From Ostrea edulis (taxonomy: Eukaryota): a stretch of DNA of 64,000 nucleotides. A program made the translations under genes and the position numbers. The DNA lies in NCBI RefSeq assembly GCF_947568905.1, contig NC_079168.1, positions 30,814,001 through 30,878,000 of the forward strand, written 5' to 3'. The notes under the pieces were generated by a model that had not been told where the DNA came from, made no database searches, and saw only the letters and a list, made by a program, of their open reading frames with translations. This document shows positions 24,983 to 43,837 of this stretch, one piece after another (within the stretch, counting starts at the first letter, position 1; every line of letters begins with the position of its first letter).

Positions 24983-25065
24983 GTTTGTTGTGCGTCGAAA
25001 CCGACGGTAGCCTCGTTTTCGATGCGGTATGCATATTTATGAGCATCTCATTAAGAAAGGAAACC

Positions 25066-25271: not shown

Positions 25272-25372
25272 GGTAGTGCACTTATTGCACTGATTGGGGC
25301 TTGGGGGGTTTGTGTGTCACTCATATTTGTTTTAAAGTAGCTCTAAAAAGGGCTGTGCATGAAGTTTTTATT

Positions 25373-25876: not shown

Positions 25877-26013
25877 GACTGAAGGTCAGACAAGAATGAC
25901 TGTAGAAACCAGCTGACGTACAGGTGCTTGATCATGTGGTGCAGGTGCTTGATCACGTGATGCATAACCTTTACCTATAAATACAGGTGTTTTCTGAACG
26001 TTCGTTATTCACT

Positions 26014-26346: not shown

Positions 26347-26382
26347 AACAAGAACGTTTTGGAATTTTTTCATTTGATCATC

Positions 26383-26739
26383 ATGGCTGAATGGGACAAC
26401 AACAATTTTCTTACCGCTGTATTACAGTATTTCAAGGACTACAAAGAATCGGTGAACAACGCTCGTAGCGCTGCATTACAGTGTATCAAGGACTGGAAAG
26501 AAAAACAGCCGTTGAGATATAAATTCGCCATGAAGTTGTTGATCTTTTGGGAATTTCCTATGACCTTATATGAATATTCCGGCGTTTGCAAGCATATAGC
26601 CGACAACCTGAACAGAGAGTCTGGATTGATCATGATTTATACCATGGAGCAAGAATTTAGACGACGGGAACCTGAGAAGACTGGGGCGATTGTAGCGATT
26701 ACCGATCACTGGCTGGAAAAGGTGTATAAAAAAACCTAA
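26383..26739 (+). CDS. Bcl-2-like paralog 2 (divergent)
   Basis: EYSGVCKHIADNLNRESGLIMIYTMEQEF aligns with the BH1-like segment of paralog 1; all-helical, similar size. Confidence 0.5.
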   Translation: MAEWDNNNFLTAVLQYFKDYKESVNNARSAALQCIKDWKEKQPLRYKFAMKLLIFWEFPMTLYEYSGVCKHIADNLNRESGLIMIYTMEQEFRRREPEKTGAIVAITDHWLEKVYKKT

Positions 26740-26767
26740 CCGTTTTCTTTTCCTTTATTCCTGGAGG

Positions 26768-27073
26768 ATGGCCAGCAGTGACCACATCACAGAGAAAGCG
26801 ATAGCTTATGTATTGGATTATCTCACAGACATTCATTCTTGGCAGTTTGAATTTGTGTTACACTATCTGCGAGAAGAATTATTTCCCATCAGCTTAAAGG
26901 AGTATCCATGTCTCTGTCAGCATTTGATCGAGAACCGGATCACCCCGCAAGCCTTAGTACTGATTCATTTAATGGGCCAGGAATTGAAACGAATTCGACC
27001 CACAGACAGAGCAGAAATCGAGAAAATCAGACTACGATGTCTTCGAGAGATGTACGTCAAGTTAAACGTGTGA
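26768..27073 (+). CDS. Bcl-2-like paralog 3 (divergent)
   Basis: FPISLKEYPCLCQHLIENRITPQALVLIHLMGQEL matches paralog 2 FPMTLYEYSGVCKHIADNLNRESGLIMIYTMEQEF. Confidence 0.5.
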   Translation: MASSDHITEKAIAYVLDYLTDIHSWQFEFVLHYLREELFPISLKEYPCLCQHLIENRITPQALVLIHLMGQELKRIRPTDRAEIEKIRLRCLREMYVKLNV

Positions 27074-27252
27074 CCTTTAATCTGGAACGGAATCAAGTGT
27101 ATTGGCTACCTGAAGAAGATCGAACCAGTCCTTGGATGACCATGGCCGTGGATCGATGTCGATTTCAAACTAGGATTCGAGCCATGGAACAGATCTTGGA
27201 GCCTATATTGAATGACTTTTTACAAAAAACTGTTTTTGAATTGATATTGTGA
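27037..27252 (+). CDS. 71-aa PP1 regulatory subunit mimic, GADD34/ICP34.5/DP71L family
   Basis: RVxF motif KRVTF followed by R.SPW...AVDRCRFQTRI..MEQILEPIL, matching the GADD34 C-terminal R.GPW...ARDR.RF.RRI...E..L.P.L; AATAAA at about 27260. Confidence 0.85.
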   Translation: MSSRDVRQVKRVTFNLERNQVYWLPEEDRTSPWMTMAVDRCRFQTRIRAMEQILEPILNDFLQKTVFELIL

Positions 27253-27810
27253 TATGGTGAATAAAAATAGAGTCACCAGTTCTGTGTTTGTTGAATCTTA
27301 CAAAGGAGGGTATATAATAAGGAGATGAGGAAGTCTAGGCTGAAATCAAGATAGAAATCCGATTCTATACTTTGATTTCTATCTCTGAGGATGAATTGGA
27401 TATTTCTACAGGTGTACACCCCTGAGAAATAAATAGTTTAAACCCGCTAGGAGAAAATTTTACCTCGTCTCGACTCTTTGGCGGGATGATCCTGAATTCA
27501 TTTCAGGGTGTATGAGCATAAAATGCATAGGATTAGATGCAGCCCGGTGAAAACTAGGCGTTGGCTTGAACACCGGGGAGAAAACGAGTCCTCGACATGA
27601 ATAAACGAGGAAAAACTCTCTACTCGAAAGCACAAATCCGCCATTTTGGACGTCCACCATCATGGCGTTCAAACTGGACAGGGATGTTTTCAACGACGTC
27701 CGTGCTGGAGTCGTTTTAAACCAGCGCAACGTCAAATTCCAGCATTCCGTTCTAGGAACCAGCGACTTGTAAAGTCAAAGAAGAAGAAAAGAAGTAAGAA
27801 GAAGAAGAAG

Positions 27811-28593
27811 ATGGCAGGCGCTAGTTATGATTTTCAAGGAGGGTTTGACTCACGTTTCCGACTTGTAGTCATTGGCGAGAAGAAAGAAGGGGATACCTGG
27901 GTGCAGTCTAGTATTACAGAACTGGGGGTGTTTACACCCCCAGATTTGACCCAAGTCATAGTTAACCGGGCGGTCGATCGAGCTCGAAAGAGGTATGGCG
28001 CCGAGGGAGGAGGACCATTCCGTAGCACCTTTACTAGGATGCGGGACTTGGCCACAGTAGCTGCGACAGCGCCACCGCCACCGCCTCCGTCCTCAGCATC
28101 CCACACCGTGCCGCCACCCAGACCAGCGACGCCGCCTAGCCCTAGGTTGTCCAGGACAGTGTCGGCCTTCCTGCCACCCCCACCACTACCGCTAGCGCCA
28201 CCCCCACCACTACAGCTATCGCCACCATCACCACCACCTATGCTAGAGTACACTCCGGTGTCAAGTCCAGAGGTTTCCCCGAGGTCGCCCTCGCCCCAGA
28301 GCCGCGCCAGGAGCAGGTCGCCCAGCCGGAGGACCCCGCCACCCAGACCCCCGCCGCCCAGAGTCATCAATTGCCCGATCACCAACAGAACCATTAGGAT
28401 TCCGCCATGGGCCGTAAGAGTGCGGGACCGGCTGATGAAATGCCCCATCTGTTGGTTGGACGACCGGCATTCCGGGATCAAGTGCCGGGGGTGTGGGCAG
28501 CGAGTAGTATGCTGCGATTGCCTCGAAAGGAATGAGAACGGGCGGTATACAAGAGGAAGGTGTCCGCATTGCCGGCATGAGGGACCCCATTAA
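27811..28593 (+). CDS. Proline/SR-rich protein with C-terminal RING-type finger
   Basis: CPIC..CRGC..CCDC..CPHC; central poly-Pro and RSRS tract; ATG at 27811 downstream of a promoter cassette. Confidence 0.7.
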   Translation: MAGASYDFQGGFDSRFRLVVIGEKKEGDTWVQSSITELGVFTPPDLTQVIVNRAVDRARKRYGAEGGGPFRSTFTRMRDLATVAATAPPPPPPSSASHTVPPPRPATPPSPRLSRTVSAFLPPPPLPLAPPPPLQLSPPSPPPMLEYTPVSSPEVSPRSPSPQSRARSRSPSRRTPPPRPPPPRVINCPITNRTIRIPPWAVRVRDRLMKCPICWLDDRHSGIKCRGCGQRVVCCDCLERNENGRYTRGRCPHCRHEGPH

Positions 28594-28777
28594 AGAACAG
28601 GGAGACCAAACGGCCCTTTTCAGGGCCACCAACTTTTTTTGAAAAGACACTTTTTATTGCAAAAATCAAGAAACACACAAGTTTTTTTTTTTTTAAAGTT
28701 TTATTAACACAAGTCACATAGTAGGCAGAATAAAGTTTTTTTTTACAAGTAATAGCTAGAATAAAGCTATAATAAAG

Positions 28778-29275
28778 TTACATTTTCTTGACAATGTAAA
28801 CATGTTTATGATACTGATAAGCAAAGTCACAAATCCATTGTCTATAATGAGTCCAATTGCCTCCGGCTAATCCACATCCAATACGATAAGGAAACGCTAA
28901 AGTCTGGTAAGACAAAGTGCCTAATTCCTGTAAACATTGTTGAAACCAAAGTTCACGTTGTTCGGGGGTATCGGCATACAGGGGTAAGCGTTGAGTGCCT
29001 CTCCCGTAATCCCATTGCGCTAACAAACAGATCACATCAGGATGAGTAGAATGAGGCATAATACACACAGTACCCGGTATTCCTCGATCCGCTTCTATAG
29101 CTAAATTTCTCCGTCCTAAAGGTTGTCGGGTCGCATACAGATTAGCCCAAGGAAATCGGTCGGCAATACGTTGACTTAATCCATGAGGTTTCACCGTTAA
29201 ACAGTTACATTGTTGTACAATAGCATCCACCCAAGGTAGAGATAATACATCTCCTCGTAGATCCGTCACCGACAT
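28778..29275 (-). CDS. Macrodomain protein (ADP-ribose binding/hydrolase, TARG1/Poa1-like)
   Basis: GDVL..DAIVQQCNC..HGLSQRIADRFP ... LAFPYRIGCGLAGGNW are macrodomain signatures. Confidence 0.85.
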   Translation of the reverse strand: MSVTDLRGDVLSLPWVDAIVQQCNCLTVKPHGLSQRIADRFPWANLYATRQPLGRRNLAIEADRGIPGTVCIMPHSTHPDVICLLAQWDYGRGTQRLPLYADTPEQRELWFQQCLQELGTLSYQTLAFPYRIGCGLAGGNWTHYRQWICDFAYQYHKHVYIVKKM

Positions 29276-29667
29276 GCTGGTTGACAGGTCTCACAGGTAC
29301 ACGTTGACCAGGGTTCTTGACTGTAAGGACAATGTTGAAACAGCCGGGGATCAAACTTTCTCTGAGTCCAGCGCTCTCTAAACTCCTGCAAGATCTCACA
29401 GGTACAGTCCTTATGCGCTATTTCTTCTTCAGGGGTGATGGTACAATGCTGCGGACACTTACACTCTAGCCAGGGTTCTCTAGTGTGACTACAACATTTA
29501 TAGACAAAGGGATAATACGTCAGCTCTGCCAATCTCTCTATCCACTTCTGTTTGACCAGGATGTTTTCTTTTTTATAATGAAAACAGCCACAAGTTAACC
29601 AATGTCCTCGGCAATACCCACACACTAGTACATCTTTCTCATCATCCGCGTACCGTTCAAACGACAT
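29266..29667 (-). CDS. Cys-rich orphan with three C-x(5-6)-W-x2-CxC repeats
   Basis: CGYCRGHWLTCGC, CCSHTREPWLECKC, HCPYSQEPWSTCTC; TATA at about 29695-29703. Confidence 0.65.
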   Translation of the reverse strand: MSFERYADDEKDVLVCGYCRGHWLTCGCFHYKKENILVKQKWIERLAELTYYPFVYKCCSHTREPWLECKCPQHCTITPEEEIAHKDCTCEILQEFRERWTQRKFDPRLFQHCPYSQEPWSTCTCETCQPACR

Positions 29668-29852
29668 GATTGAGAAAAATGGTAACAAGTGACCTATTTA
29701 TATAGTGTTTTTTGATGAGTCATCAACATGACGTCCGCCATCTTTGACTGAGGTAGGGGATGTTTTCAAGGACGTCCGCGCTCTCGCCTTTTTAAACGAG
29801 CGCAACGTCAAAATCTGGCATTCCGATTTTTTAAGGAACCAGAGAAGTAGAT

Positions 29853-30146
29853 ATGAGTCGTAGAGTAGGACCAGACCCTACAGTGAATGACTATTTTTTC
29901 AAATGGGAGGAGGATTGGGACCGAGAGATTGCCCCGCCGGCCTCACGGGAGGCTCTTCCCCCACCGCCCATGAGCCAGGATCTGCCCCCGCCAGAGGAAA
30001 ACTGGGACGCAGAGTTGGAAGTGGTGCAGCGGCCTCCGGGGAGAGTGTTTTTTAAACACGGGTTGCCTGTTTTTGTGTTTGACCACCAACAACCCCCGGA
30101 GGAGCAGAAAAAGAAGAGAAGAAAGAGGAAGAAGAACAGACAGTGA
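29853..30146 (+). CDS. 97-aa orphan with two EExWDxE motifs and a basic NLS-like tail
   Basis: EEDWDREI and EENWDAEL; KKKRRKRKK; upstream promoter cassette shared with the RING gene. Confidence 0.6.
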   Translation: MSRRVGPDPTVNDYFFKWEEDWDREIAPPASREALPPPPMSQDLPPPEENWDAELEVVQRPPGRVFFKHGLPVFVFDHQQPPEEQKKKRRKRKKNRQ

Positions 30147-30375
30147 GGGGGGACAGAGAAGAGAAGAAGAGAAGGAGAAGAGAGAGAAGAAGAAGAAGAA
30201 GAAGAGAAAAGACCAAGAACAGAGAGAGAGAGAAAGAAAACAGCCCTTTTCAGGGCTACCCATTCTTTTTGAAAAGACATGGTTGATTACAATGACAAGA
30301 AAAAACAAACCCAGAAGATTTTTCCAACGTTTTATTAAACTCCAACTATGAACAATAACAATACAATAACATAGT

Positions 30376-30873
30376 TTACAATACATTCAGTCTTTGACAT
30401 TGACAAGTTTGTCCTTGATGGGTTCTCGGTTTTCGGAAGGTCTCTTTAAACCAATCAGCCACAAAACGATCGCGTTGTAAGGCCGTGCCTTTCCAGGGAA
30501 GTAACCATTCTTGTACGGTGCTTCTATGTCGATGGCGTTGATGTAAAAAATACACACAGTATTGTCCACAGACATCCGTATTCAAATCTTGATAACAATG
30601 GGTGTTATGAATCCAAGTCTCTCCGTGGCGTTGAATAAAGTCTTGGATGTCTTTATGGCTGGGAGGTAATCCGTAAGAATCAAAATATTCGACGGTAGGG
30701 CTACTCAAATACAAACAGACTCAATGCGCTCCAGGGCGATCGTGAGGGTCTGTATTCACCACGATGGCTTTGTGATGAGGTAACAGCTCAGGTATGACAT
30801 CTCGAGGATACACACCTGCAAACGCCGGTCCTAAATCTCGTTGTAAAACATCTCTCAATTGCTGAGTATCCAT
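30376..30873 (-). pseudogene. Polinton adenain-like cysteine protease with a nonsense mutation
   Basis: MDTQQL...VVNTDPHDRPGAH*VCLY..EYFDSYG..CYQ..VCGQYC; TGA at 30721-30723 replaces the Trp after the catalytic His. Confidence 0.9.
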
Positions 30874-30888
30874 CTCTCTCTCTCTCTC

Positions 30889-32292
30889 TTAGTAATCGAT
30901 GCTGACTTCTCGTTGTTTGTTGATTTCTAGCAGATTGTCGAACACGGCATACACCACACAGTTTAAGGTCCTGGCCACGTTGGCGGCAAATTGCACTTCC
31001 ACTCTCAAGTTCCCAGTCTGTATGAGCTGAAATTTATCCGTCTGGGCTTCTTGATCTTTCGTGAAATCCACACACCAGAGGGTGTAACCGTTTTTATACT
31101 CTTCCAGGGTAATGTCCGGAGCCCAGTCCTGGCCTAATTTTCCCAAGCCTTTGTACAGACTCAAATACGATCTCAGGTACTGATCGTCGGTGAAATTAGG
31201 TTCCAAAGGTCGGGTTTCCATCATTTCTCCATTGATACTGATTTCTAATTTCTTGACTTTCTCATTTTGGAAATGAAAGGGGTTTCTGGTATTATCCCCA
31301 TTAAAAGCCGCATTGTCCACAAAGCCCAACACGACCAGTTTAGGCATCTGTCCTTGAAACAGATGATCGGTGATTTTAGATTGGGTGCCACTAGGAATGG
31401 TGAAGGTTTTCACTTCCACTCGTCTCAATGGATATTTCGCCGTTTGAGTACTCAGTTGCTGATTGATGAGATTAATGATACTCGGCACAGGTTTGACTTT
31501 CCTCACCCACAAGATCATACTTTGAATGACCACTTTCCCACTACTCCCGGCAGCGGTCATCATGTAGAACTGGGGTCGAGCGCGATTGAATCTGAGACGG
31601 ACATCCACGCCATTAGGGAGACATTTCTCTTGCTCAAACAAATCCAGATGTAATCGATCCATCAACACGATCTCCTTACTGTCTGTAATCTTCTCGTGAC
31701 GTTTTCTCAACCCTACATTCTTGGAATCATCCGGATACTCGGGAGTCGGGATGACGGCCGCGATGTTGACTTTGTTAGACACTACTGCAAATTCCACAGG
31801 AGTTTGAGTCAGAGCTTCTAATTTGACCTCATCCATATGTCCTGCCGTATCTTTTTCCCACAAGCTACAGGCTCTCATCTGGGTTTCCAGAGTCTTGGGT
31901 GCATAAGACAACAATTTCTCCAGATACGCTTTGTAGGGATAAGTATCCGTCCCCGGGGTAATGACTTTTCCATTGAGACTGACATCGATTTCACTGAACA
32001 AGGAATGGAGAATGTTATTCACGGGGGTCGAGGTCGAATTGCCTCCTGCGAGATTCGTTCCATTGGCTTTCGTGAATTTACATACCATCTGGAGATAAGT
32101 TTGGGATAAATCCAGATATTCATCTCCTTGTCCTTTGATTTCAAATTCAATCGGAGCCGTATCCGAGTTGAGGGTACTGGAAATGGGGTAATATTCCATC
32201 CATTTCGAATCTTCTAAAGTGACGTTGGTCGGGGGCACTTTAAACAGTTCTAAACTGTCGGTGCCACAAGCGCAAGATTCTCTGTGCATCAT
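30889..32292 (-). CDS. Polinton major capsid protein (double jelly-roll)
   Basis: 467 aa open frame; ELFKVPPT...PIEFEI...YLDLSQTYL...[17 protein letters not shown]...YPYKAYLE typical of Maverick MCPs. Confidence 0.92.
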
Positions 32293-32371
32293 ATTGGAAC
32301 GATGTGTTACTCAGCGTGAACTGGCATCAAATGTGTTCTGGTCTCCTTCTCACCCCCTTTTTATAAGGTTC

Positions 32372-33052
32372 TCAGTCGAAAATATCCAGAGAGCGTTTTG
32401 GCTTACCCCTTTTCACTAGCTTCCTACCTCCCTTCCTAGATCGCTTCCTAGGTCTCTTATGAGGCCCTCCCCGAGCTAAGATACGTTGTTTTCTTTTAAC
32501 AAATCCTTTTCCTTCCTGTATTCCCACCTGTTTTCCCGCCTGTTTTCTTTTGAGGGTCGTGGTTCCAGGCTTCCTGAGTATTCCTGTGCGCGCTTTTCTT
32601 CCTCGTTTGGATGGGGCTTTTCGAGACCTTCGCCTACGAGCATACCCTGCTGTCTCTTTCAGGGCTTGGGCACCGTGTGTCTTGAGAGCGTCTTTGAGTG
32701 ATCGTTTATTATCTAACACATCCATCCCTGTTTTAGCAGCAGCCTTTAAGGCACTTTTAGCCCCCGATTTGAGTAAATCGGTGAAAAATCCTTTTCCCTT
32801 CTGCTTTTCAGATTCTGGATCATATTCTTCTGTTGGATGGATTCTACGTCGTCTCCTCTGATAAGAGCGATAAGGGCGGTCGTAATCATAATATCTCTCT
32901 TGATAGACAGGACGCTGTTGTTGTTGTTGCTGTTGTGCGGGGGCTCCACCTAATAATCCGCTGATCAGGGGACCCGCCACTTTGCTAGCTATTCCCAGCA
33001 GGGCTCCAAGCCCGTGACCCTGCTGCCGTATTAAACCTTTATGGTAGTGCAT
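32372..33052 (-). CDS. Basic core/virion protein with QxGxG motifs
   Basis: RQQGHGLG, KQKGKGFF, IQEGKGFV; Arg/Lys-rich; lies directly upstream of MCP. Confidence 0.75.
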   Translation of the reverse strand: MHYHKGLIRQQGHGLGALLGIASKVAGPLISGLLGGAPAQQQQQQQRPVYQERYYDYDRPYRSYQRRRRRIHPTEEYDPESEKQKGKGFFTDLLKSGAKSALKAAAKTGMDVLDNKRSLKDALKTHGAQALKETAGYARRRRSRKAPSKRGRKARTGILRKPGTTTLKRKQAGKQVGIQEGKGFVKRKQRILARGGPHKRPRKRSRKGGRKLVKRGKPKRSLDIFD

Positions 33053-33079
33053 CTTGATGTAAATGAACTTCGTTAGGGG

Positions 33080-33223
33080 TTACACCCGCTTTTTATACTT
33101 TTTACGCCGTCTCTTTCTCTTCTTTCCTTGGCCCGCTTGACCCGCAATGGCATTGGCAATCCATGGAATGAGAAACCAGATTCCGTGTCCTTTCTGGCGT
33201 CTGACTCCTCGATGGTACTTCAT
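33080..33223 (-). CDS. 47-aa basic core peptide (below the ORF-track cutoff)
   Basis: MKYHRGVRRQKGHGIWFLIPWIANAIAGQAGQGKKRKRRRKKYKKRV; its N-terminus parallels MHYHKGLIRQQGHG of the next gene. Confidence 0.7.
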   Translation of the reverse strand: MKYHRGVRRQKGHGIWFLIPWIANAIAGQAGQGKKRKRRRKKYKKRV

Positions 33224-33226
33224 CTT

Positions 33227-34212
33227 TCAATACACTTTGCGGAAATGAAGTTTGACTAAGGACCGCCCATTTAAAAAGCCCATAGGACGCCCTAAAGAAT
33301 TCATGATGTGTACCTCAATGGTATCGAAATATTTCTTACTCAGTTTCAAATATTCGGCTCGAATCGGTTCCCAACGGGCTTGTTGTCGATCGTCGTATTG
33401 AGCCGTACAGGGGACGACTCTCAATAATTTCAATTTGTTGGTGCCCACCACTTGAGGATCCACAATGTCACAATACACATACATGGCTTTCAGATTGTCG
33501 TAGACATCCATGGTCGTGTTCCCCAAGTAATTCACGTTGATCCATTTCGTCATGGTTTCATGGCCCAGGATCATTTTGTCACTATCCAGACCTAGCTTGT
33601 ACGCTAAGGGCGTAGGGAAACGAATGCACATGGGGGTGGCTCTCAGTGTTCTCCCATTAAAGTGATACTCGACACGATCGTACTCGGGGTGATACACTAA
33701 GATCTGGTTGTTCCCCTCTTCGTTAGGATCCCCTAACTCGCTCCATACTTTCCACAGGGTTCTCCTTAAGGCTGCGTTGATTTCATTGATTAACGCCAAA
33801 GGTTGTGTATAAGCTCCGGGTCGGAAGTGAATGCGAATGATATCGAAGGGAAATAAACTATCCCCTCCCTCAAAGAGATGGGACCATGGCGTCAGATGCC
33901 AGGGGACCACCACCACACACCTGGCCATCGTGACTTTGCCCATATTCTCTGTCTTAAATCTTTCCCATTTATAAGTGTTGGGATCTTGGACATGTTTCGT
34001 ATACGGATCTGGAATGAGAACGTCCACATAAGTCTCGCTATCCGATACGTTTTGTAAGTTGGCCGAGTACATCATCCGACTTCCCATTCTCCATCCGTTA
34101 AGTCCATGGTGTGTGGCAATAACGTTTTAAATTGAGCAGTCGTATTCGTCGGAAACGATTCCATCGACCCATCACTCAACAGAGTCATGTAAAACCCTTC
34201 TCCTCCAGCCAT
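33227..34212 (-). pseudogene. Polinton minor capsid protein (penton-like) with a frameshift
   Basis: MAGGEGFYMTLLSDGS...LPHTMDL.DGEWEVG then a frameshift near 34075 into ..MMYSA...MYVYCDIVDPQVVG...LLRVV...LHFRK. Confidence 0.85.
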
Positions 34213-34329
34213 GATGTCTTAAATGAGACCCTGTCTCTGTTTCCTTCTCTATTTATACACAACACCGTTTTGTTTTTTCACAATTTTTATTTGAAACAAC
34301 ATACAACATGACAATACATTCAATTCAAT

Positions 34330-34779
34330 TCATTCTTCTTGATCGCGGCCACCACCGCACATCAACGCATCCGAGTCTGGTAACGTCAGGATTCGTCTCG
34401 GGACTAAGCGTCGTCGCATCACCAGATAGTGTCGGGTTCCCCAGCAATCGGCTACATCATAACCTCCATTGATCATGTCTTTAAAATGGTGGAGACAAGC
34501 TTTCACGTTGTCGTACCAAGGACTATCATTTAAGGTCCAATCGGATTCGTCTTGTCGTCCCATCAATCCCCAGAAGGCTTTGACTTTCCAGCGAAACTCT
34601 TGATATTTAGTCTTTCTGATAAATGGCACCCAACCATCAGGAATCACGATCCGTTTGTACAAGTACACAGGATGCGTCGACGTTTTGTGTTGTTTACAAT
34701 GCATCAAACACATCTGCTTATCCCAGAACCAGGTACTTTTCTTCCCCTCTTGTTTCCAGGCGTACTGTGGCTTAGCCAT
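34330..34779 (-). CDS. 149-aa Polinton orphan protein
   Basis: Open frame with own TATA (about 34814-34820) and downstream AATAAA; no recognisable motif. Confidence 0.6.
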   Translation of the reverse strand: MAKPQYAWKQEGKKSTWFWDKQMCLMHCKQHKTSTHPVYLYKRIVIPDGWVPFIRKTKYQEFRWKVKAFWGLMGRQDESDWTLNDSPWYDNVKACLHHFKDMINGGYDVADCWGTRHYLVMRRRLVPRRILTLPDSDALMCGGGRDQEE

Positions 34780-35019
34780 GGTGAACTGATCTCTCAGGTG
34801 AAGGGGACTCCTGTTTTATAGGAGGTGCATTCATTTGAGGACTAGGCATGACGTAGCCCACCAAAGAACTTAAGGTCACCATCCAAAAATCGCGATTGGG
34901 ATCGCGTATGGCTAACATGACTACCGAGGTGATAATGATGGTTCAACAGAGGAATAATTGTGCAAAATACACAATTTCACTCCGGGGGACTTTTTCACCC
35001 AAGAAAGTCCACTGGGTGG

Positions 35020-36105
35020 TCATGACAGAATGAGATCCGCTTGCGGAATCCATGAATCAAAACTGGGAGGATATCCTTTCCAACGCACTTTGACTTCTGA
35101 AATGACTTTTTTTCCCACACGCCGCTTTTTATACCCTAAGATTTCTTCCACTTCATAGACATCATCGTCTTTAATCACTTGTTGTAATTCCTTCTCGTAA
35201 AAGGTTCCTTCTAATTCTTCCCCGTGATCATCTTGAATGCGATAGACGTTTCGTCCTGGCACTTTTCTAGAGATGGTAAACAGTTCTTTGGTCCAATTCG
35301 GTAAATATCCTTTTTCAAACGTACGTTTGGCTTTACTAATGCGTACACGATCCCCCACTTGCAAGCGACTCGTGGTATCGGCACTCTGTTTTCCATACAA
35401 GGTTTTCCATACGGTCAAGACATTCTTGGCATTGACTTGAGCAGGAGCTCGCCGGATACTGCGATGATAGGTATGATTGTAACCATACACCAGATCGGCC
35501 AAGACATCGACATACCGTCGTGTTTTATGGCCTGTAAAATACCGCCACATGCGTGCTTTCAGCGTGCATTGAAAACGTTCCACAATACTGGCTTTGGTTT
35601 CGGCATTACGGGTCGTAAAGAAATGAATGGATTTGAAGGCTTGACGAAATTCTTTATTGGTAAATTCTTTTCCTTGATCGGACTGAATGCGCACGGGGCG
35701 ACGTCCCTCTCGAAAAATCCGTCGTAAGCCTCGTATCATTTCTTTCCCCGTTTTCTGTTTTAAAGGCACGACCCAGGCATATTTAGACAGCACGTCAATG
35801 GCACATAATAAAAACGTATACCCATTATTGTCTTGTTTCAAGCTGGAGACATCGGCTAAATCTAATTGCCATTGTTCATCCATATCCGTCACTCGTGTTT
35901 GTCGTCGCTTGAATTTCCTCCGTATCGGTTTATGCAAGGTATAGGTATCTTGAGCTTTCACCCATTCTCGAATTTGAGACAGGGTAATCTTGTGTCCTAA
36001 TTGACGCACTTGACGATACAACGCCTGGACTCCCCCATAACCTGTCTTGGGATCGTAATACAGTCGCTGTAAGATCTGTTCTGGTTTCATGGTAGATTTA
36101 ACCAT
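35020..36105 (-). CDS. Retroviral-like integrase with C-terminal chromodomain
   Basis: WQLDLAD, IQSDQGKEF, ASIVERF DDE triad; YEVEEIL..VRWKGY..FDSWIP chromodomain. Confidence 0.95.
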   Translation of the reverse strand: MVKSTMKPEQILQRLYYDPKTGYGGVQALYRQVRQLGHKITLSQIREWVKAQDTYTLHKPIRRKFKRRQTRVTDMDEQWQLDLADVSSLKQDNNGYTFLLCAIDVLSKYAWVVPLKQKTGKEMIRGLRRIFREGRRPVRIQSDQGKEFTNKEFRQAFKSIHFFTTRNAETKASIVERFQCTLKARMWRYFTGHKTRRYVDVLADLVYGYNHTYHRSIRRAPAQVNAKNVLTVWKTLYGKQSADTTSRLQVGDRVRISKAKRTFEKGYLPNWTKELFTISRKVPGRNVYRIQDDHGEELEGTFYEKELQQVIKDDDVYEVEEILGYKKRRVGKKVISEVKVRWKGYPPSFDSWIPQADLILS

Positions 36106-36851
36106 TTTCCGATGTCACGGGCCGTCTTTCTACCAGCATCTCTGATCGGTTTAGGGGTTAGACGTTGCGGTGTTTCATAGAACGATTGATCAAATCCCGT
36201 GAGCTCTTGAAATCCACTCTCCTCTTCCTCTAGAGGTCTAGGCGTACTGATTTTCCCTGGTTTGTCCATGGCTTTTATAACATCCCGATTGCTCACATAT
36301 CCTTTGGGAGCATGAGTCTCTTTTAACGCTTGAGCAAATTCCTCTAATCCCGCGGGGGGATCACGATGTCTTAAGGGTCTTTGTCGCTGGGTTTCGCTCA
36401 TTAAATCCACAATATTGGAATCGGGAACCCTGCGTCCTCTATAGCTGATTCCTCCTTCTTTATTCCAAGTCACCACTTTGGATTTCTTGAGATGATCGAG
36501 TAATAAACCTGCTTTCTTTTGACCCGGTTTATTGACGCTTTTGATAATCTGTTCCTCCAAGTCATCGGGTGCTGAGGCGGCTGAGGGTGGTGAGGCGGCA
36601 CTGGCTGCACTGGTTGGGGAGGGCAGAGTCGCTGTGGTGGGATGTCGAGCTTGTTGTAAATATTGACGATAGCGATGAAGTTGATGACCGTACAACCCCA
36701 CTTTTTCTTTCTCGGTTAAATCATCTCGATGTTCAATCTCATCCAAATCACTGCGTAAACCAATAGTCGAGGTAAATTCGGGAGGTTTAGGTAATTTGCC
36801 TTTTAATTCGTTGAGCATCGCTTCCGGTACCAACACCATTTTTCGACTCAT
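36087..36851 (-). CDS. Conserved Polinton protein of unknown function
   Basis: MSRKMVLVP...KAGLLLDHLK..VTWNKEG.ISYRG..VPDSNIVDLM...PAGLEEF..AL pattern seen in Maverick core-block genes. Confidence 0.75.
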   Translation of the reverse strand: MSRKMVLVPEAMLNELKGKLPKPPEFTSTIGLRSDLDEIEHRDDLTEKEKVGLYGHQLHRYRQYLQQARHPTTATLPSPTSAASAASPPSAASAPDDLEEQIIKSVNKPGQKKAGLLLDHLKKSKVVTWNKEGGISYRGRRVPDSNIVDLMSETQRQRPLRHRDPPAGLEEFAQALKETHAPKGYVSNRDVIKAMDKPGKISTPRPLEEEESGFQELTGFDQSFYETPQRLTPKPIRDAGRKTARDIGKWLNLP

Positions 36852-37177
36852 GATTTCTTACAAATCTTGCCACACACAAACGAACCCAATCCTTTTTGGT
36901 GGATGAGTATACCTCGTCGTTTTTTCACAGGTTGAGGCTGGACTAAGCGTCTTAAGATGTGTTTCTTTCGACCCAGTTGTCGCTTCTGAGTAGGGGTGAG
37001 AGGAATCACCCCTTTTAATAGATTGTACACAATCTCACAAATCTTTAAAATGCAGTCATTGGAACAATGTTTCAACACCTCTGTCTTTAATTTGCTGGAA
37101 TAGTGAGGAGCCGCTAACGTCTGCAAGAGCGGTAAATGAGGTCGTAATCGACATTCACACTTCTTCGTATGAGCCAT
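36848..37177 (-). CDS. Small basic Polinton virion protein
   Basis: ICEIVYNLLKGVIPLTPTQKRQL..KKHILRRL...KRRGIL.QKGLG; TATA at about 37210. Confidence 0.7.
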   Translation of the reverse strand: MAHTKKCECRLRPHLPLLQTLAAPHYSSKLKTEVLKHCSNDCILKICEIVYNLLKGVIPLTPTQKRQLGRKKHILRRLVQPQPVKKRRGILIHQKGLGSFVCGKICKKS

Positions 37178-37217
37178 GGTAATGAAGGGTGGGGCACCTT
37201 CCCCCTCCTTTTTATAC

Positions 37218-38090
37218 CTAGTCCCGGACAATGGCACTCGGATGTTTAGGATCAAAACGCTTGTGATGGACGGTCTCTTCGTGACGATTGCGGTTCTCTC
37301 TCGCATTGAAGACCAGAGGGCAAAATTTACATTTATATTTCTTTTGCACCTGAACCGGTGTTGAGGTGGTTAAGGGTTGAAATTTCATGCCTCCAAAGGT
37401 ATGAGCAAAACTCGGTAGAGCAGTATCACTGGTTCTGGAACTTCCTATAGGCCCATGCATGGGTCGTTCCATTTTCTTTTGAGCTAATCCGGCTTTCAGA
37501 TCGGCTAACGTTTTAGTGGCCTTGGGGGGAGTGGCCTTGGGAAACGGCATCTTCACAATGAGAGGGGTTTTCTTTGGAGCCCAATTGGGAAACGGATTCT
37601 TCATCCTGAGAGGTGTCTTCTTAGGTGTCTTCTTAGGGGACTTCTTAGGTGTCTTCTTAGGTAAGCGAATAATGAGTTTAGGAATTCTCTGAGGCGATTT
37701 TTTAGCTTTCTTAGCCCGTGGTTTCTTGGTTTTCTTGGGTTGTCTCCCACGGGGCTTACGGCCTGTTTCCCATTTGAATAAATGACGGATAATGGTCCCT
37801 CCTAAGAATCCGGCGCCTCCTCGTTTCAAAATGGCTTTTTTACGCTCTTCTTCATTGGCCTTCTTATCGGCAATGACACTCAAGTCTTGGCGATGGGATT
37901 GAATGAACCGCTGAGTGATTTTATTGCCTGGTAAGACGCCTCGCAATAAATTTCGAGCTCCCATCGCAAACCAGTTGAGTAAGGCTCTACGTCCTAATTC
38001 AATGAGATGGCTCCGTTGAACGGGATCCCGTTCCCGTTGTAAACGGCGTAACGTTTTGACTAATTTACTCTTCGCGGAAGGTCTACCCAT
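37218..38090 (-). CDS. Basic Polinton protein with KKTP/KKSP repeats and a C-terminal C2H2 finger
   Basis: N-terminal part paralogous to 36848-37177 (NLLRGVLP...KKAILKRGGAGFLG); CKFCPLVFNARENRNRHEETVH zinc finger. Confidence 0.7.
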   Translation of the reverse strand: MGRPSAKSKLVKTLRRLQRERDPVQRSHLIELGRRALLNWFAMGARNLLRGVLPGNKITQRFIQSHRQDLSVIADKKANEEERKKAILKRGGAGFLGGTIIRHLFKWETGRKPRGRQPKKTKKPRAKKAKKSPQRIPKLIIRLPKKTPKKSPKKTPKKTPLRMKNPFPNWAPKKTPLIVKMPFPKATPPKATKTLADLKAGLAQKKMERPMHGPIGSSRTSDTALPSFAHTFGGMKFQPLTTSTPVQVQKKYKCKFCPLVFNARENRNRHEETVHHKRFDPKHPSAIVRD

Positions 38091-38139
38091 GGTGAAGACT
38101 GTCTTTCAAATGATACACCTGCCCATGATGTGACATTAT

Positions 38140-38778
38140 TTATACTCTCGGGGGCATGTGCACAGCCAAGTTGGTAAAGAGTTGACTTCTTAATCTTAAA
38201 TCGTCCGACGTCTGAGGACTCAAGTCCACTAGTAAATACCCGTGAGGTACACGGGTGGCGTCCTCATAGGCTGGAAGTAAATGCGGCATTTGTAATTGCC
38301 GACTTAACACCCCAATCTGAGATTTATCTCGAGGATTTTTAAACAGCACAAGATAGTGAGCATTCAGACTGATGGTACGATGTTGTACTGCTCGATCAAA
38401 CAGATTTTGTGTGATATAAATGACACTGGTATTTCGATGATGCGCTTTGCGCGTAAACCAGTCGACAATCGATTCGATGGCTTTACCTCCCATCATATCA
38501 TCAAAAATGAGTAGATGACGCGTACTGAGATCCGCCACTATCTGCTCATCGTCTTGAGGTATATTGCGGATAAAAGTGACCTTGTCCTGTAAGGATTCGT
38601 ACGCGGGCTGCCATTCTCGATAACACCATACTATCTTTTCGGGAGGCGGTGCAATCCACTGCGTATTTTGCACCAGCTGTTTGACAAATTCTGTTTTACC
38701 CGATTTAGAGGGTCCGGCCACCACCATGGTAAATTCATGTTTCAACTGAAAAGGCTCAAGTGTCTCGTAGGTATACAT
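38140..38778 (-). CDS. A32/FtsK-like DNA packaging ATPase
   Basis: Walker A GPSKSGKT, Walker B LLIFDD, HHRNTSVIYITQNLF. Confidence 0.93.
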   Translation of the reverse strand: MYTYETLEPFQLKHEFTMVVAGPSKSGKTEFVKQLVQNTQWIAPPPEKIVWCYREWQPAYESLQDKVTFIRNIPQDDEQIVADLSTRHLLIFDDMMGGKAIESIVDWFTRKAHHRNTSVIYITQNLFDRAVQHRTISLNAHYLVLFKNPRDKSQIGVLSRQLQMPHLLPAYEDATRVPHGYLLVDLSPQTSDDLRLRSQLFTNLAVHMPPRV

Positions 38779-38819
38779 CTTGATAAATGACACAAGTTCA
38801 GGAAAATCATATCTATTTA

Positions 38820-39347
38820 TTAACAAATAAAAATACGTACAGCTTGCTCAACACCATGTCTACAAATAGGACATTGTGTCAGTCCCGTAGCACATATAGC
38901 ACAAGTACATAAATGACCACAAGGTAAAAAAGCTATTCTCAAGTCTCTTTCTAAACACAGATGACATTTCTCCGTCGTAGCCGGATTCTCCACACTGTCT
39001 ACAGGCAAGTCTCCCCATTCCTTCCCCGTGTCTCGCATTCGGCTAACGGCGTCGAACATTTGGCGTACCCATTGTTTGCCCTTATTACACTTCAGGTAAG
39101 GACAGTGAGGATACCAATAAGCATGTTGTATCCAAGGATTGTCGACAGCTCCCCAATGGTGAAGTCCAAAGTTGCAATAAAAACAGCACGTGTTATCCCC
39201 GTACCCTTTGTAAAAGTATCCCGCTTCTGCAATGGTAGGTAATAGCTTCTGCAAGTGTTCGGCACCATTTTCAAACGACGCTACTCGATCTGACAGTAGA
39301 GCATAACGTGGTGTACCCGGGTTATGTAGTGATTCGTAGTCCGTCAT
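38820..39347 (-). CDS. Inhibitor of apoptosis (single BIR plus RING)
   Basis: BIR: R..SF..AEAGYFY.G.GD..CFYC-x16-H-x6-C; IAP-type RING CHLC..AFLPCGHLCTC..C...CPICR..VRIF. Confidence 0.92.
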   Translation of the reverse strand: MTDYESLHNPGTPRYALLSDRVASFENGAEHLQKLLPTIAEAGYFYKGYGDNTCCFYCNFGLHHWGAVDNPWIQHAYWYPHCPYLKCNKGKQWVRQMFDAVSRMRDTGKEWGDLPVDSVENPATTEKCHLCLERDLRIAFLPCGHLCTCAICATGLTQCPICRHGVEQAVRIFIC

Positions 39348-39384
39348 TTTGCCGACTGATGGTTTTCTCTAGCATGTCCTTTTT

Positions 39385-42300
39385 TTAATACCCGTAAGGC
39401 AGCGTGTCATAGTCATGAATACGTTGACGTTTATCATACACCATGCGGTATTTCTTCACCAGAGGAATGGTTCGCACATCATGTTGGCGGGTTCGTTGAA
39501 TAAAGTGCGGATAGCGGACATGGACTTCTTCTTCTTCTCCTTTCAACATTTTTTCCAACGTATCGAGAGACACGACTCTAGAGGCACGATAATTGAGTGT
39601 CAATCCTTTGACTTTGCAGACAGATTTTCCATTCTGGGTCTCGTACGCATAATTTTTGGGCCCGCCCGACATGTACTTGGTGATACGATCTCCACCCAAT
39701 TCATCGGTCCAGCCGCCTAAACTGTTGATAATGGTCGGGTTGAACTGGGTCTCGTCGTGCTGATAGATGATACTATCCGTGTCAAAGTATAAGACACGCT
39801 CTCCCAAAGGCTGTAACGTCTCGTACAAATGTAAACGAGCATGAGCTGTTGTAAAACACGCCAGCACCACGTTTCCAAAGGGGCAGTCTTCTAAAAATTC
39901 TTCTTTCTCCTGATAATTGATCAGCATCATATCACATTCGGGGCGTTCACGATTTTCTAAGAGTTCGATGCCTTTGACTTCTAAAGTGGCATCTTGTAAT
40001 TTCTGTTGTAATTCTTCTTCTTCCGTGAGATACAGGGATTTGGGTAATTGTAATCGTTGAGCAAATTTTCCCCACAAGCAATTTAAAAAGAGTTTTGCAA
40101 TGGTTCTTCGGACCGGATTTTTCTGGATGTCGGCCGGGTTCATGGCAATGCCTTCTCGTTGCTGAATTTCCTCAATGTAATGTTGCTGCTGTTGGGCTGT
40201 TTGACAATCCTCGGGGAATCCGGAAGCTTCTTGTTTAATTTTCAAAAAGGTGTTGATATACGATCGAAATAAGTGCTCACTGGTTTTCTCAAAATGCCAA
40301 ACTTCGTAAATGCGGTCGAGACGATAACCCAGATCTAATGCTTTGTGAAGTTCGGTGGTCACCCAGGTTCCAGTGAGACTGCGTTCAGAATCGGTGTGCT
40401 GGCACCGCTCGTCGGGTCCTAAGTTGCGCTGTTCCGCACAGGTGCGGCATAAGGGAAAGAGTAATTTGCCCCCGGTCTTGTAAGGTAATACGGGGTGATA
40501 CAGCTCTCAGGGTGGTAAGACACGACAACGAATGAGCCCGAAATAGTCTCTGACATCGGTGAAATGGCTGGTGATGACTTGGGGATGTTGGACGGGAAAT
40601 GGCTTGTATTTCAACACGTACGGGTACAGGGAACAGACATCCACGTATCGCATATCCCCTTCCTCACAATACAGTCGTGTAGCATTGGTCCGGCCTCCGT
40701 ACAAAGCGTCACGGGGATTCAAAGGATCTTGTATATCGACTCCTTGTAAAAATTCCTGTAAGTCGGCATTGGTCTGGGTCTGACGATCAAACTCGTGTTC
40801 CCATATGCTCACGACTGTATAGCCTTGGTCTTCTAAAGCACTGGCTCGTTTTAAGGTGTCCAGGTAGAGGTCTTGATACGTATGCTGAACACGATGAGGA
40901 TGCATGTCAGTCAACAGATTCGGGTAACAGGTGGGACAGCCGTGCCAGTAACAGCCATAGAATTCGTACACGATACGGGATTCCTCATCATACCCATCTA
41001 CTGTATAGGGTCTAAGCGTGACTTCGCCCCCATTTCTAGCATGTCGTATGCAGTGATGTTGATGTTCTAGCCAGGCGAGCCATCGACAAGCTTTAGCTGA
41101 ATATCGTCGTGCTGGCCGGTAGCCCATATTAGGAATGATGGCGATGGTATTTTCATCCATGAATCCTCGTCGGTAGGCTAAATTAGCCGTGCTGGCAAAC
41201 GTGATGGATTCTTGAAAGGGGTCTACTTCCACCAGATCAAACAGGGTGGACTTGAAATGGGCACAACAGCGGCGTAAAATATCCACGTCCGAGATGCAGT
41301 AAGCTAAGAATTCTTTCTGGAAATCAAAGACTTTGCCCTCTTGTTGATGGTACCAAGTATAGAAGGCTTCACGATTGGCGGTGGACATATCGTCAGGATT
41401 GTAGAAATGAGCGGCCGGGTAAGGACCCACATACTGCTGGTTCTCTGTCGTGTTGAAAAAGTGAGGGAAATATCCTTTTTTCAATTCCGTTAATCCGAAA
41501 GCAGAGGGCATCTTGGCAAGAGCAAAGGGTAGAAAGTTGTAAGAATCGATGAATCTCAACCCCAAGACTTGCATGGATAAGATTTTACTGCCGTTCAGGA
41601 TGACGGTGGGTTTGATACACGCCGTGTGAACCAGGTAATTCAAAATAAACTGCCCATCGTATCCTTTGAAATTGTGGGCAATGATGGTGACTTCATCGTG
41701 TTTGAGTTCCACATGGCCTTGCTCATCGGTCTCGCTCTGTAAGAGCCATTCCATAAACTGTTTTAACGTGTCGGGTCCTTGAAATAGGAAGCGGCGTTGT
41801 GATCCGAATCCTTCACAATAAGAACAGGGCTTGTCGATATCCACACTGTCGCAATGTTGACACACACGTTCTGCCACGCATAAATTGGGGGTGTGAATAC
41901 CGTTTTCCTGACTGCATTCGAAATCGTAATAAATGTATATTTTCAACTCCTCTTCTTCTTCTTTTTCTTTCTTAGGTTTGGGTTTCGTCTGTACAAAGCA
42001 GTGATGAGGCATGGTGACGACTTTGTGACAGATGCGGCATTCGGTTTGACCCCCACACGCGTGGCGTTTTAATAATTTCTTGGACATCCATTTCTGACAC
42101 TGGTTACAGCGCCCCATTAAACTGCAGACCGTGGTCGTTGTATTACTGCTGTAGGGTTTTAAATGGTTCTGGTAACAAGCTGCATTTCTGAAAAATCCCT
42201 TACAATGAGGGCAATTCGTCTGAGTCCCGTCCGGGATACAGGGGGTATCGGCTAAACAAAATGAGCATCGATGAGGACAGACGGTCCGATGTTCTTCAAT

Positions 42301-43347
42301 GTGACTGTAGCCAACATCGCAATAATCGCAATAGTATTTGTTTTCCGTCACTCCAGGCATAGACACAATGGCATCGTAATGCTCGTTATCCAGCAGGATA
42401 TTCAAACAAGTCCCGTGCCCCGGTCCTTTGTAAATAGGTTCCAGTCGTAAACGAGCTGTATTCGTTTTGAATTGAAATATTTTCAATCGATACTGCGGGG
42501 CGAGCGCGTGCTGTAATTGCCCCCATTCACGTGGCCCACACGGCTGGTTCATAACACACCCAGCTTGTTCCATCAAGGCTATCGCTTCTCGTTTCTGGTC
42601 GAGAGTTTTGAAATCCCCTTTTCTCATGCGTAACCATTTCGTTTCCCATGCCGGGTCGTTTAATTTCTGGCTGTGTAGACGTGCTACCACAATAGCCCGG
42701 GACAAGCAGAGAGAATCCTCAGGATTTTGAATGCGAACGATCGCTCTCTTGGAGTTTTTGAATTTTTCCTTTTCCACATGCAGATGTTTTTTCTTAGTGC
42801 ACCCGCTGCCTTGTGGATATTTGACATGGAAAAAATCCAACTGCACTGCCCCGTCGGTGATTAGGAATTCCTTTTTAGATTGCTGCACGGATTCTATTTT
42901 GTTCAGAATTTTGTCCTCGTTGAGCTGATTGGACTGCGTAAATTCGTACCAAATATCTGAATCCAGAGACGGGTGCCGAATATTTAAACGTAGATAATCA
43001 TTGGGATTGCACTGCATTTCCTGTTTCACATTTTTTAACATATCCCGGAAGAGGCGACGAATGAAGGCTGTATTTTCTTTCTCTGGAATAGGCTTGAAGG
43101 CAACATTGTAGACATTTTCCTTGACTTTAAATTTCCGTGATTGACGTCCTCGTTCCAGTTGAATTTTGTAATAATCCGAAATGAGTTTCTTTTTTCCCCC
43201 TCCCCGCTGTAAATACTGTAGTCGCCGTTGATTCTCTCTGCGGAGTTGTAATTCACGCTGCCGTTGTCTGTTCAGCTGATCATTCAAAAATCTCAATCGC
43301 TGTTCAATATAACTCCGTGGAAGTCCACTAGGTAACTTGTCTGACAT
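39385..43347 (-). pseudogene. Protein-primed family B DNA polymerase (about 1320 codons) with one in-frame TGA
   Basis: Exo YDFEC, HNFKGYDG, FIDSYNF; Vsr-like insert VDGY..VYEFYGCYWHGC; Pol YVDVCSLYP, KLFLNCLWGKF, YFDTDS, GPKNY, KVKG. The two track ORFs are in frame across TGA at 40507-40509 (LPP*ELYHPVLP). Confidence 0.95.
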
Positions 43348-43399
43348 GATGTCGAAAGTGACACCCAATGCACCGCGCGCCGCTTTATATATATACCTG

Positions 43400-43837
43400 T
43401 AGACAGCGCTGGGAAAAACTTGGCACCGTGCCAGCTCTGGGGAAAAACTTGGCACCATGCCACCACTGGGAAAAACCCATCGGCACTGACCCAGCAGGCG
43501 GTGGAAAAACCCAGGCTGGACACCTGGCGATCACGTGATAGGAAAGTTCTAGAACCTTTGGCTTGAAAAACTGCACTCCGTTGACCTTCCTCGGTTGGCT
43601 TGATATACAATTGTACACTCCGTTAACCCCAACAGCAATAGCAACAGCTATGCTCTGCACTCTATCCCACTGACCTTTAAACCGGACCATGCTATAGGAC
43701 CCCTGCTGGGGCCCGCTTGACCAGTGCACTCCGTTGACCCCGACACCGCTTGACCAATCAGAAGCCGCCCTTGCTTGACCTCATTTGCATAAAAAGTGCA
43801 CTCAGTTGAACTCCCTATCGGGAGGGCTTATACTACT
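43400..43837. repeat. Polinton right terminal region (TIR)
   Basis: NFI/kB motif block 43405-43520, repeated TGACC motifs, CCAAT, octamer ATTTGCAT at 43783-43790, terminus ...CTTATACTACT. Confidence 0.85.

What the first reader, a model, noticed from the sequence alone, without database searches (positions are those of the whole stretch)
43400..43837. Adenovirus-like host-factor origin/enhancer: octamer near the terminus plus NFI and kB sites
Reading from the end, AGTAGTATAAG is followed by ATGCAAAT at nt 48-55, a CCAAT box, several TGACC half-sites and then TTGGC-N5-GCCA sites (43420, 43449) alternating with GGGAAAAAC(CC). Established: adenovirus protein-primed initiation is stimulated by NFI and Oct-1 bound within about 50 bp of the end, and GGGWWWWWCC is a Rel/Dorsal-type site. 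Inference: Polinton replication or pPolB transcription (TATA about 43385-43395) may be coupled to host NFI/POU factors and to immune activation.
Basis: partly seen in the sequence, partly recalled or inferred. Interest (0 to 1): 0.72.

Follow-up and report, generated by a model that had tools for sequence, protein, structure and literature searches.

The report
Modular Polinton end with swappable promoter
This is the true end of a virus-like Polinton element in an animal genome (likely an oyster), where related copies share a fixed 46-base tip that likely serves replication and integration, while the octamer beside it is lineage-specific and the NFI/kB-like sites further in form a rare, exchangeable block that likely acts as a gene promoter rather than an adenovirus-type origin.

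Summary
The motifs are there and 43837 is a real Polinton terminus, but they do not form one adenovirus-type origin. Genome-wide, 397 termini share a core at fixed spacing (nt 1-10 and 27-41); 185 carry the octamer at nt 48, 71 carry an AGGTCA direct repeat there instead, and diverged lineages have no octamer (0 of 28). One integrated copy has a 48-bp TIR with a perfect TSD. The NFI-like sites lie 375-420 bp in, outside the ~100-bp TIR of sister copies, in about 7 elements; 55 of 60 copies with this promoter type lack the full site. The same array sits before the TATA of a zinc-knuckle gene at the other end, and two other modules replace it upstream of an invariant TATA-TCACTTT-ATG. So NFI as a promoter input is plausible; NFI at the origin is not supported; immune coupling is untested (2 of 4 kB-like sites fit the Dorsal consensus).

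The parts
43828..43837 (-). Element tip, nt 1-10, beginning with the (AGT)2 end motif
   Evidence: TSD-flanked in sister copies; (AGT)2 is a described Maverick end motif tied to jump-back priming (PMC8097293 passages)
43792..43812 (-). Conserved inner core, nt 26-46 (window letters AGTTCAACTGAGTGCACTTTT); likely origin/attachment signal
   Evidence: At nt 27 in 29 of 29 close and 27 of 28 diverged protein-selected termini, 397 genome matches vs 0 control, present in L149; spacer nt 11-26 varies
43783..43790 (-). Octamer ATGCAAAT, nt 48-55; lineage-specific filling of a variable slot
   Evidence: 185 termini; 56 of 57 lineage ends; 0 of 28 diverged termini
43774..43781 (-). AGGTCAAG half-site, nt 57-64; a half-site stands at nt 56-59 also in the direct-repeat lineage and in L149
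43754..43758 (+). CCAAT box, nt 80-84; chance-level by shuffle but unvaried within the octamer lineage
43738..43837 (.). Part shared as inverted repeat by both ends in array-bearing sister copies (100-113 bp)
   Evidence: L003/L102, L004/L103, L005/L104, L006/L105, all with TSD
43572..43739 (-). Three further same-orientation copies of the core motif at nt 99, 210, 252 (43739-43725, 43628-43614, 43586-43572)
43400..43512 (.). Tandem NFI-like/GGAAAAAC array: palindromes 43420-43434, 43449-43463, degenerate 43480-43494; GGAAAAAC at 43411, 43440, 43468, 43503. Likely promoter-proximal module
   Evidence: outside TIR; replaced by other modules in sisters
43345..43395 (-). pPolB core promoter and start: TATA 43395-43385, TCACTTT 43361-43355, ATG 43347
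   Evidence: TATA 29-30 nt before TCACTTT and ATG 14-15 nt after its first base in 67 of 67 copies with a native start; the ORF-caller start at 43458 lies inside the array and is not shared
39385..43347 (-). Protein-primed DNA polymerase B gene, interrupted in this copy by an in-frame stop near 40507
   Evidence: PF03175 on both pieces
25065..25272 (-). Second copy of the NFI-like/GGAAAAAC array (7 palindrome-like units, 4 GGAAAAAC). Not a TIR remnant: in sister copies it precedes the TATA of an outward zinc-knuckle gene, which is lost here with the left end
25060..43837 (.). The Polinton copy as a whole (pPolB, A32-type ATPase, rve integrase with chromodomain, DJR capsid-like protein); left end missing

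Best explanation
The stretch is the polymerase-side end of a Polinton built from three separable layers: a 46-bp tip conserved at fixed spacing across lineages that likely is the origin and integration signal, a lineage-specific octamer slot just inside it, and a rare tandem NFI-like/GGAAAAAC array outside the shared TIR that likely acts as a promoter module for pPolB and a zinc-knuckle gene, not as an origin. Mechanism: (shown) nt 1-10 and 27-46 stay fixed while spacer and everything from nt 47 inward is exchanged; (inferred) the element's pPolB/terminal protein and integrase, possibly helped by a factor that reads the oriented RGKTCA repeats, act on the tip; (shown) TATA-TCACTTT-ATG is invariant while three upstream modules alternate, even before identical coding sequence; (inferred) recombination between co-resident copies swaps the modules, changing which host factors drive the first genes at each end; (inferred) host NFI dimers bind the array in the minority that carries it; (untested) any role of Rel or POU proteins.
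For: Core: 397 matches, 0 control; 56 of 57 protein-selected termini have it at nt 27; L149 too. Slot: octamer 185, direct repeat 71 (not strict subsets of the 397), core re-iteration in most of the others fetched. L131/L132: perfect TSD, 48-bp TIR, different slots at the two ends. Array: TIR only 100-113 bp in 4 of 4 array-bearing copies with both ends; 27 of 28 genome matches of the composite fall in seven element loci; full proximal palindrome in 5 of 60; same array before the zinc-knuckle TATA in L102-L104 and a different promoter there in L105-L107. Modules among 67 copies: array 5, short remnant 20, CRE-type 34, E-box/TGGGAA-type 8; L034, L039, L042 have identical first 330 coding nt but two promoter types. 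L149 has two perfect TTGGC-N5-GCCAA with a different spacer, each with GTTTTTCC, then TGACGTCA and TATA, between divergent zinc-knuckle-family and pPolB genes, with no alignable DNA (best E 0.38). Gene-less 17-kb derivatives with TSDs have no NFI or GGGAAAAAC site.
Against: No binding, transcript or replication data: all functions are inferred from conservation. Part of the terminus set (L109-L148) was selected with the core pattern, so overstates core conservation (the protein-selected set is not affected except by needing the first ten bases). The octamer is strikingly stable in the largest, apparently youngest lineage (0 of 27 motif columns vs 8 of 25 other columns polymorphic, Fisher P=0.0014; P=0.09 with singletons; motifs chosen after viewing), so it may matter for replication there, and adenovirus NFI/Oct-1 sites are themselves dispensable enhancers absent from some species (PMC11285639, PMC2685984 passages). 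The independent NFI recurrence rests on one outside contig with broken ORFs. A short TIR with TSD could also arise by exchange after insertion.
Confidence: 0.62

Rival explanations
1. One reading: NFI and Oct-type host factors together stimulate protein-primed initiation at this end as in human adenovirus.
For: (AGT)2 tip and pPolB; perfect octamer at nt 48-55, close to the ~50-bp adenovirus origin (PMC11285639 passage); near-consensus NFI sites at the same end; host NFI gene present.
Against: No NFI site within the first 370 nt whereas adenovirus NFI binds nt 23-36 (PMC6410123); array outside the TIR and in about 7 elements; octamer absent from 28 of 28 diverged termini.
Confidence: 0.05
2. 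Adenovirus-like layout with exchangeable helpers: nt 26-46 and nt 47-64 are auxiliary origin sites; the second is filled by a POU octamer in one lineage and by a nuclear-receptor-type AGGTCA repeat in others, and boosts replication rather than transcription.
For: Both fillings start exactly at nt 48; each is stable in its lineage; nt 26-41 occupies the adenovirus NFI position; RGKTCA half-sites 3.1-4.3 per first 300 nt on the inward strand vs 0.3 in host flanks; L149 has the direct repeat at nt 59-72. Compatible with the best explanation, which leaves the slot's role open.
Against: A third class has neither filling; one copy differs between its ends; strict one-strand polarity fits an element-encoded binder as well as host factors; receptor labels are recalled, not tested.
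Confidence: 0.25
3. The array is a Rel/NF-kB response element that couples element gene expression to immune activation.
For: 2 of 4 sites on the pPolB side and 3 of 4 at 25065-25272 fit GGGWDWWWCCM; a GGAAAAA(A/C) tract also occurs in 25 of 34 CRE-type promoters and in L149; the element carries IAP and PP1c-binding ORFs.
Against: The two sites nearest the TATA end in TT and fail the consensus; most GGAAAAAC in other modules lack the GGG half, which fits an NFAT-type core (recalled) as well; 55 of 60 sister promoters lack the full NFI site and most also read GGGTAAAAC at the neighbouring position; no expression data.
Confidence: 0.2
4. The inner motifs are by-products of tandem duplication and drift in a recombining non-coding region, with no bound factor.
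For: Array units are repeats of one another; decay in the successful majority; many short motifs can be named in any 440 bp.
Against: Half-sites and 5-bp spacing are kept while the spacer varies (four spacers in the window, a fifth in L149, a sixth in L088); placement directly before TATA at two genes and in two lineages.
Confidence: 0.13

Closest known systems
Human adenovirus ITR origin (core origin + NFI + Oct-1/NFIII auxiliary sites)
   Same: Protein-primed polymerase system, triplet-repeat tip, a conserved block in the first ~50 bp, an octamer near nt 50; auxiliary sites differ between lineages (species D and old E4 lack NFI: PMC2685984, PMC6410123 passages).
   Different: No NFI site at nt 23-36; that position holds an unrelated RGKTCA-containing block; octamer starts at nt 48 (adenovirus about nt 39-40, recalled); NFI-like sites are promoter-proximal and outside the TIR.
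Polinton/Maverick TIRs with (AGT)2 ends and 6-bp TSD (PMC8097293)
   Same: End motif, TSD, about 20 kb size, pPolB, rve integrase, ATPase, capsid-like gene.
   Different: The passages read describe only the 6-bp end motifs; the nt 26-46 core, variable slot and alternating promoter modules shown here were not found described.
Adenovirus packaging A-repeats (PMC5033970)
   Same: Oriented, repeated, redundant motif within a few hundred bp of the end; host-factor binding there (COUP-TF, Oct-1) did not track with function, a caution for motif reading.
   Different: No sequence likeness claimed; here repeats occur at both ends and the first copy is at fixed distance from the tip.
End-module turnover in Polinton-like viruses and virophages (PMC11296320)
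   Same: Ends and adjacent modules exchanged between elements.
   Different: There it is replication/integration genes; here it is non-coding slots and promoter modules among co-resident copies.

Membership tests
Polinton/Maverick | Protein-primed PolB | tested here: met
   PF03175, E 9e-38; broken by a stop in this copy
Polinton/Maverick | rve integrase | tested here: met
   PF00665 + chromo at 35020-36105
Polinton/Maverick | Packaging ATPase and double-jelly-roll capsid gene | tested here: met
   Pox_A32 E 7e-7; 30889-32292 resembles clusters of which 14-24% carry PF21738 DJR-like (a lead rather than a direct Pfam hit)
Polinton/Maverick | TIRs with (AGT)2 ends and 6-bp TSD | tested here: met
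   Met in sister copies, 18 of 19 pairs with TSD; this copy has lost its left end
Polinton/Maverick | Maturation protease gene | tested here: inconclusive
   No protease family among 20 ORFs scanned; not searched further
Adenovirus-type NFI/Oct-1 auxiliary origin | NFI site within the origin (nt 23-36) | tested here: not met
   First TGGC-N5-GCCA at nt 376; position from PMC6410123
Adenovirus-type NFI/Oct-1 auxiliary origin | Octamer within about 50 bp of the end, at both ends | tested here: met
   nt 48-55 at both ends in 13 of 13 octamer-lineage pairs; slightly further in than the ~50-bp origin
Adenovirus-type NFI/Oct-1 auxiliary origin | Sites conserved among related genomes | tested here: not met
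   Octamer 0 of 28 diverged termini; note adenovirus sites also vary between species
Adenovirus-type NFI/Oct-1 auxiliary origin | Factor binding stimulates initiation | not testable with these tools
   No biochemical data
NFI binding site | TTGGC(n5)GCCAA palindrome with 5-bp spacer | tested here: met
   9 of 10 defined bases at 43420 and 43449; 10 of 10 twice in L149
Rel/Dorsal kB site | GGGWWWWCCM or GGGWDWWWCCM | tested here: inconclusive
   2 of 4 on the pPolB side, not the two nearest the TATA; oyster Rel specificity not checked
Rel/Dorsal kB site | Induction on immune stimulation | not testable with these tools
   No run on record as RNA

The most novel reading that the evidence does not exclude
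Animal Polintons keep an adenovirus-style layered origin (tip, site at nt 26-46, site at nt 47-64) but plug different host transcription factors into it (POU octamer in the most amplified lineage, nuclear-receptor-type direct repeat in others), and separately shuffle host-factor promoter cassettes (NFI+Rel-like, CRE, E-box/CSL-like) before their first genes, so that co-resident lineages replicate in different cell types or under different signals, including immune activation.
Probability: 0.22. Interest if true: 0.72.

Novelty: new variant of a known kind. Interest (0 to 1): 0.42.

Why it matters
How endogenous Polintons are switched on and which sequences they need in cis is an open question; the papers read here go no further than the 6-bp end motif. 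This genome holds roughly 200 related copies that act as a natural mutagenesis series: they narrow the likely essential signal to 46-48 bp, show a slot and three promoter modules that can be compared directly in binding and reporter assays, and separate what resembles adenovirus (layout, octamer) from what does not (NFI position). If host factors really read these modules, Polinton activity would be tied to host cell state, as for exogenous DNA viruses.

Tried and rejected
1) Reading 25065-25272 as a left-TIR remnant: rejected, sister copies show it 1.35-1.6 kb inside the far end before a zinc-knuckle gene. 2) ORF start at 43458: rejected, homologues start at the 43347-equivalent ATG. 3) Outside relatives: single-protein scans of viral and metagenome contigs and a core-pattern scan of viral contigs found nothing; the alignment scans gave 80 + 41 loci, of which only L149 has a recognisable terminus with the core; no locus had an octamer 30-50 nt from an AGTAGT or AGAGAG, but most do not reach an element end, so this says nothing on distant Polintons. 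4) PF03175 search of G000 listed only this clade among the rows shown (77 of 259 candidates scored, 59 rows unlisted). 5) Expression: no RNA holder listed; contigs laid cannot show start sites or levels; they show only that the array-type end exists in two other runs. 6) CCAAT box as enriched: chance level. 7) Earlier scan notes: nothing returned. 8) POU and Rel genes in G000 were not searched. 9) C7:1045496, the one composite match outside the seven loci, was not examined. 10) (oyster Rel sites) gave a listing only; no paper read.

Full report
Observation. 43837 is a true element end: 30 of 30 fetched DNA hits start AGTAGT at the same base with unrelated flanks and 18 of 19 end pairs tested have matching 6-bp TSDs. 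The element inward of it encodes pPolB (PF03175; broken here by an in-frame stop near 40507), an A32-type ATPase, an rve integrase with chromodomain and a capsid-like protein: a Polinton. Its left end is missing; no partner terminus was found in the window or in the 10 kb before it. The nearest named pPolB homologues are oyster proteins (16 of 17 hits at 60-85%, of which 13 carry oyster names), so an oyster host is likely. Shuffle tests put the octamer, NFI-type, GGGAAAAAC and TGACC counts above chance and the CCAAT box at chance, with the caveats of post-hoc choice and tandem repetition.

Layer 1, the tip. A search with the pPolB N-terminus gave 128 matches (126 of 217 candidates scored). I examined the 30 loci returned for the close lineage (of 82 rows at 94-100%) and 40 of the 46 rows under 80%. 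A terminus was found within 1.5 kb in 29 of 30 and 28 of 40. The block that reads GTTCAACTGAGTGCA in the window stands at nt 27 in 29 of 29 and 27 of 28. Genome-wide a pattern of nt 1-10 plus this block at that spacing gives 397 matches and 0 for the reversed control, while the 16-nt spacer varies (126 termini, 75 distinct 64-mers, partly selected by the pattern). The only outside locus with a recognisable end, L149 (58% pPolB identity), has the same block at nt 27. One copy (L131/L132) has a perfect TSD and only 48 bp of inverted repeat. I infer that nt 1-46 is the origin and attachment signal. The block begins with RGKTCA, and such half-sites are 3.1-4.3 per first 300 nt on the inward strand in all three classes (57, 36, 33 ends) against 0.05-0.6 on the other strand and about 0.3 in 83 host flanks. 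The likeness to nuclear-receptor half-sites is recalled; the one-strand polarity fits an element-encoded binder as well.

Layer 2, the slot at nt 47-64. The octamer is at nt 48 in 28 of 29 close termini and 0 of 28 diverged ones, 23 of which have AGGTCA-AA-AGGTCA starting at the same base. Genome counts are 185 and 71 (not strict subsets of the 397); most of the other ends fetched repeat the core instead. L149 has the direct repeat at nt 59-72 and no octamer near the tip. So the octamer may be used in this lineage but is not needed by the family.

Layer 3, the array. The NFI-type sites are at nt 375-420. In four array-bearing copies with both ends and TSDs the TIR is 100-113 bp, so the array is not part of it. 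The composite palindrome + GGAAAAAC has 28 genome matches, 27 in seven element loci. At the TATA-proximal position 5 of 60 copies have the full palindrome; NFI binds half-sites about 100-fold more weakly (PMC12630593 passage). Among 67 of 70 copies with a native start, TATA, TCACTTT and ATG keep their spacing while the upstream module is array (5), short remnant (20), CRE-type (34) or E-box/TGGGAA-type (8), and the types are mixed within well-supported pPolB clades, once before identical coding sequence (three loci without native start left out; CRE, E-box, CSL and initiator labels are recalled). The same array stands before the TATA of an outward zinc-knuckle gene at the far end in L102-L104, another promoter in L105-L107; window 25065-25272 is that second array. 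In L149 two perfect TTGGC-N5-GCCAA with another spacer, each with GTTTTTCC, then TGACGTCA and TATA, lie between a homologue of that gene (41% over 92 aa) and pPolB, with no alignable DNA to any locus of G000 held (best E 0.38). This is the best evidence that the pairing is functional, as a promoter; it is one contig. The genome has an NFI gene. Gene-less 17-kb derivatives with TSDs carry no such site.

kB reading. Against the Dorsal consensus (PMC2626603 passages) 2 of 4 sites on the pPolB side match, not the two nearest the TATA; 3 of 4 match in the second array. A GGAAAAA(A/C) tract is in 25 of 34 CRE-type promoters, mostly without GGG. No expression data were obtained. Immune coupling stays possible and untested.

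Comparison. In adenovirus a ~50-bp origin has a core and auxiliary NFI and Oct-1 sites that enhance but are not required (PMC11285639 passages); NFI binds nt 23-36 (PMC6410123, PMC8160523 passages) and is absent in species D and old E4 (PMC2685984). This end works like that in layout (fixed tip, fixed second block, variable third site) but is not a member: the NFI position holds another motif. Maverick (AGT)2 ends and jump-back priming are described (PMC8097293 passages; its supplementary end logos, which may show more, were not read). A-repeats (PMC5033970 passages) and end-module turnover (PMC11296320 passages) are looser parallels. PMC5717082 passages added only that ITRs also carry Sp1/ATF sites. 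Four searches (listings and abstract starts only, library limited to open papers) showed no paper on host-factor motifs, a conserved inner core or promoter exchange at Polinton ends; this is weak evidence of novelty.

Verdict. Observation confirmed; interpretation partly supported. Best reading (0.62): conserved tip, lineage-specific slot, exchangeable promoter module. The boldest reading not excluded (0.22) is an adenovirus-style origin and early promoters with interchangeable host factors. All function is inferred from conservation; interest 0.42.

Noticed in passing
L282-L285 (G000:C1:4225121-4242475; C8:14681816-14699185): Two 17-kb non-autonomous elements, 99% identical to each other, each a giant palindrome (arms about 8.5 kb, 99.8% identical) with octamer-type Polinton ends, 6-bp TSDs and the CRE-type promoter at both ends, with no likeness to the window's element beyond the first 111 nt; a weak TIR-domain-like ORF (E 0.02) lies near the centre. 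One search shows about ten such two-ended promoter pairs 13-37 kb apart; only two were fetched.
   Followed up: partly
window 26014-27252 and 38820-39347: Host-control accessory ORFs: IAP with BIR+RING (38820-39347), PP1c-binding protein of the GADD34/ICP34.5 type (26908-27252, PF10488), weak Bcl-2-like ORF (26014-26346, E 0.03).
   Followed up: partly
L102-L107; L149:1831-2205: A two-knuckle CCHC gene lies at the far end, pointing outward, in this family, but its homologue sits head-to-head with pPolB in L149; a shared bidirectional promoter may be the older layout and would explain the twin arrays.
   Followed up: partly
G000: Very large recent expansion: 82 of 128 listed matches are 94-100% identical to this pPolB N-terminus, many within open frames over 1300 aa.
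   Followed up: no
L144/L145 (G000:C5:37050765-37066337): Nested ends: octamer-type outer termini with direct-repeat-type termini 1.7 kb inside, pointing outward, at both ends.
   Followed up: no
L088, L115: Single NFI-type palindrome at nt 264 and nt 144 in a lineage without the array (perfect consensus in L088).
   Followed up: no
window 28778-29275: 165-aa ORF that looks macro-domain-like by eye (recalled); no Pfam hit.
   Followed up: no
window 56877-58041: Tandem array with a period of about 61 bp containing AGTAGTATTAG, unrelated to the element end as far as seen.
   Followed up: no
window 17197-17243 and 24977-25023: 47-nt inverted repeat (74%) whose right arm lies just outside the point where the Polinton is cut off; possibly another transposon.
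   Followed up: no
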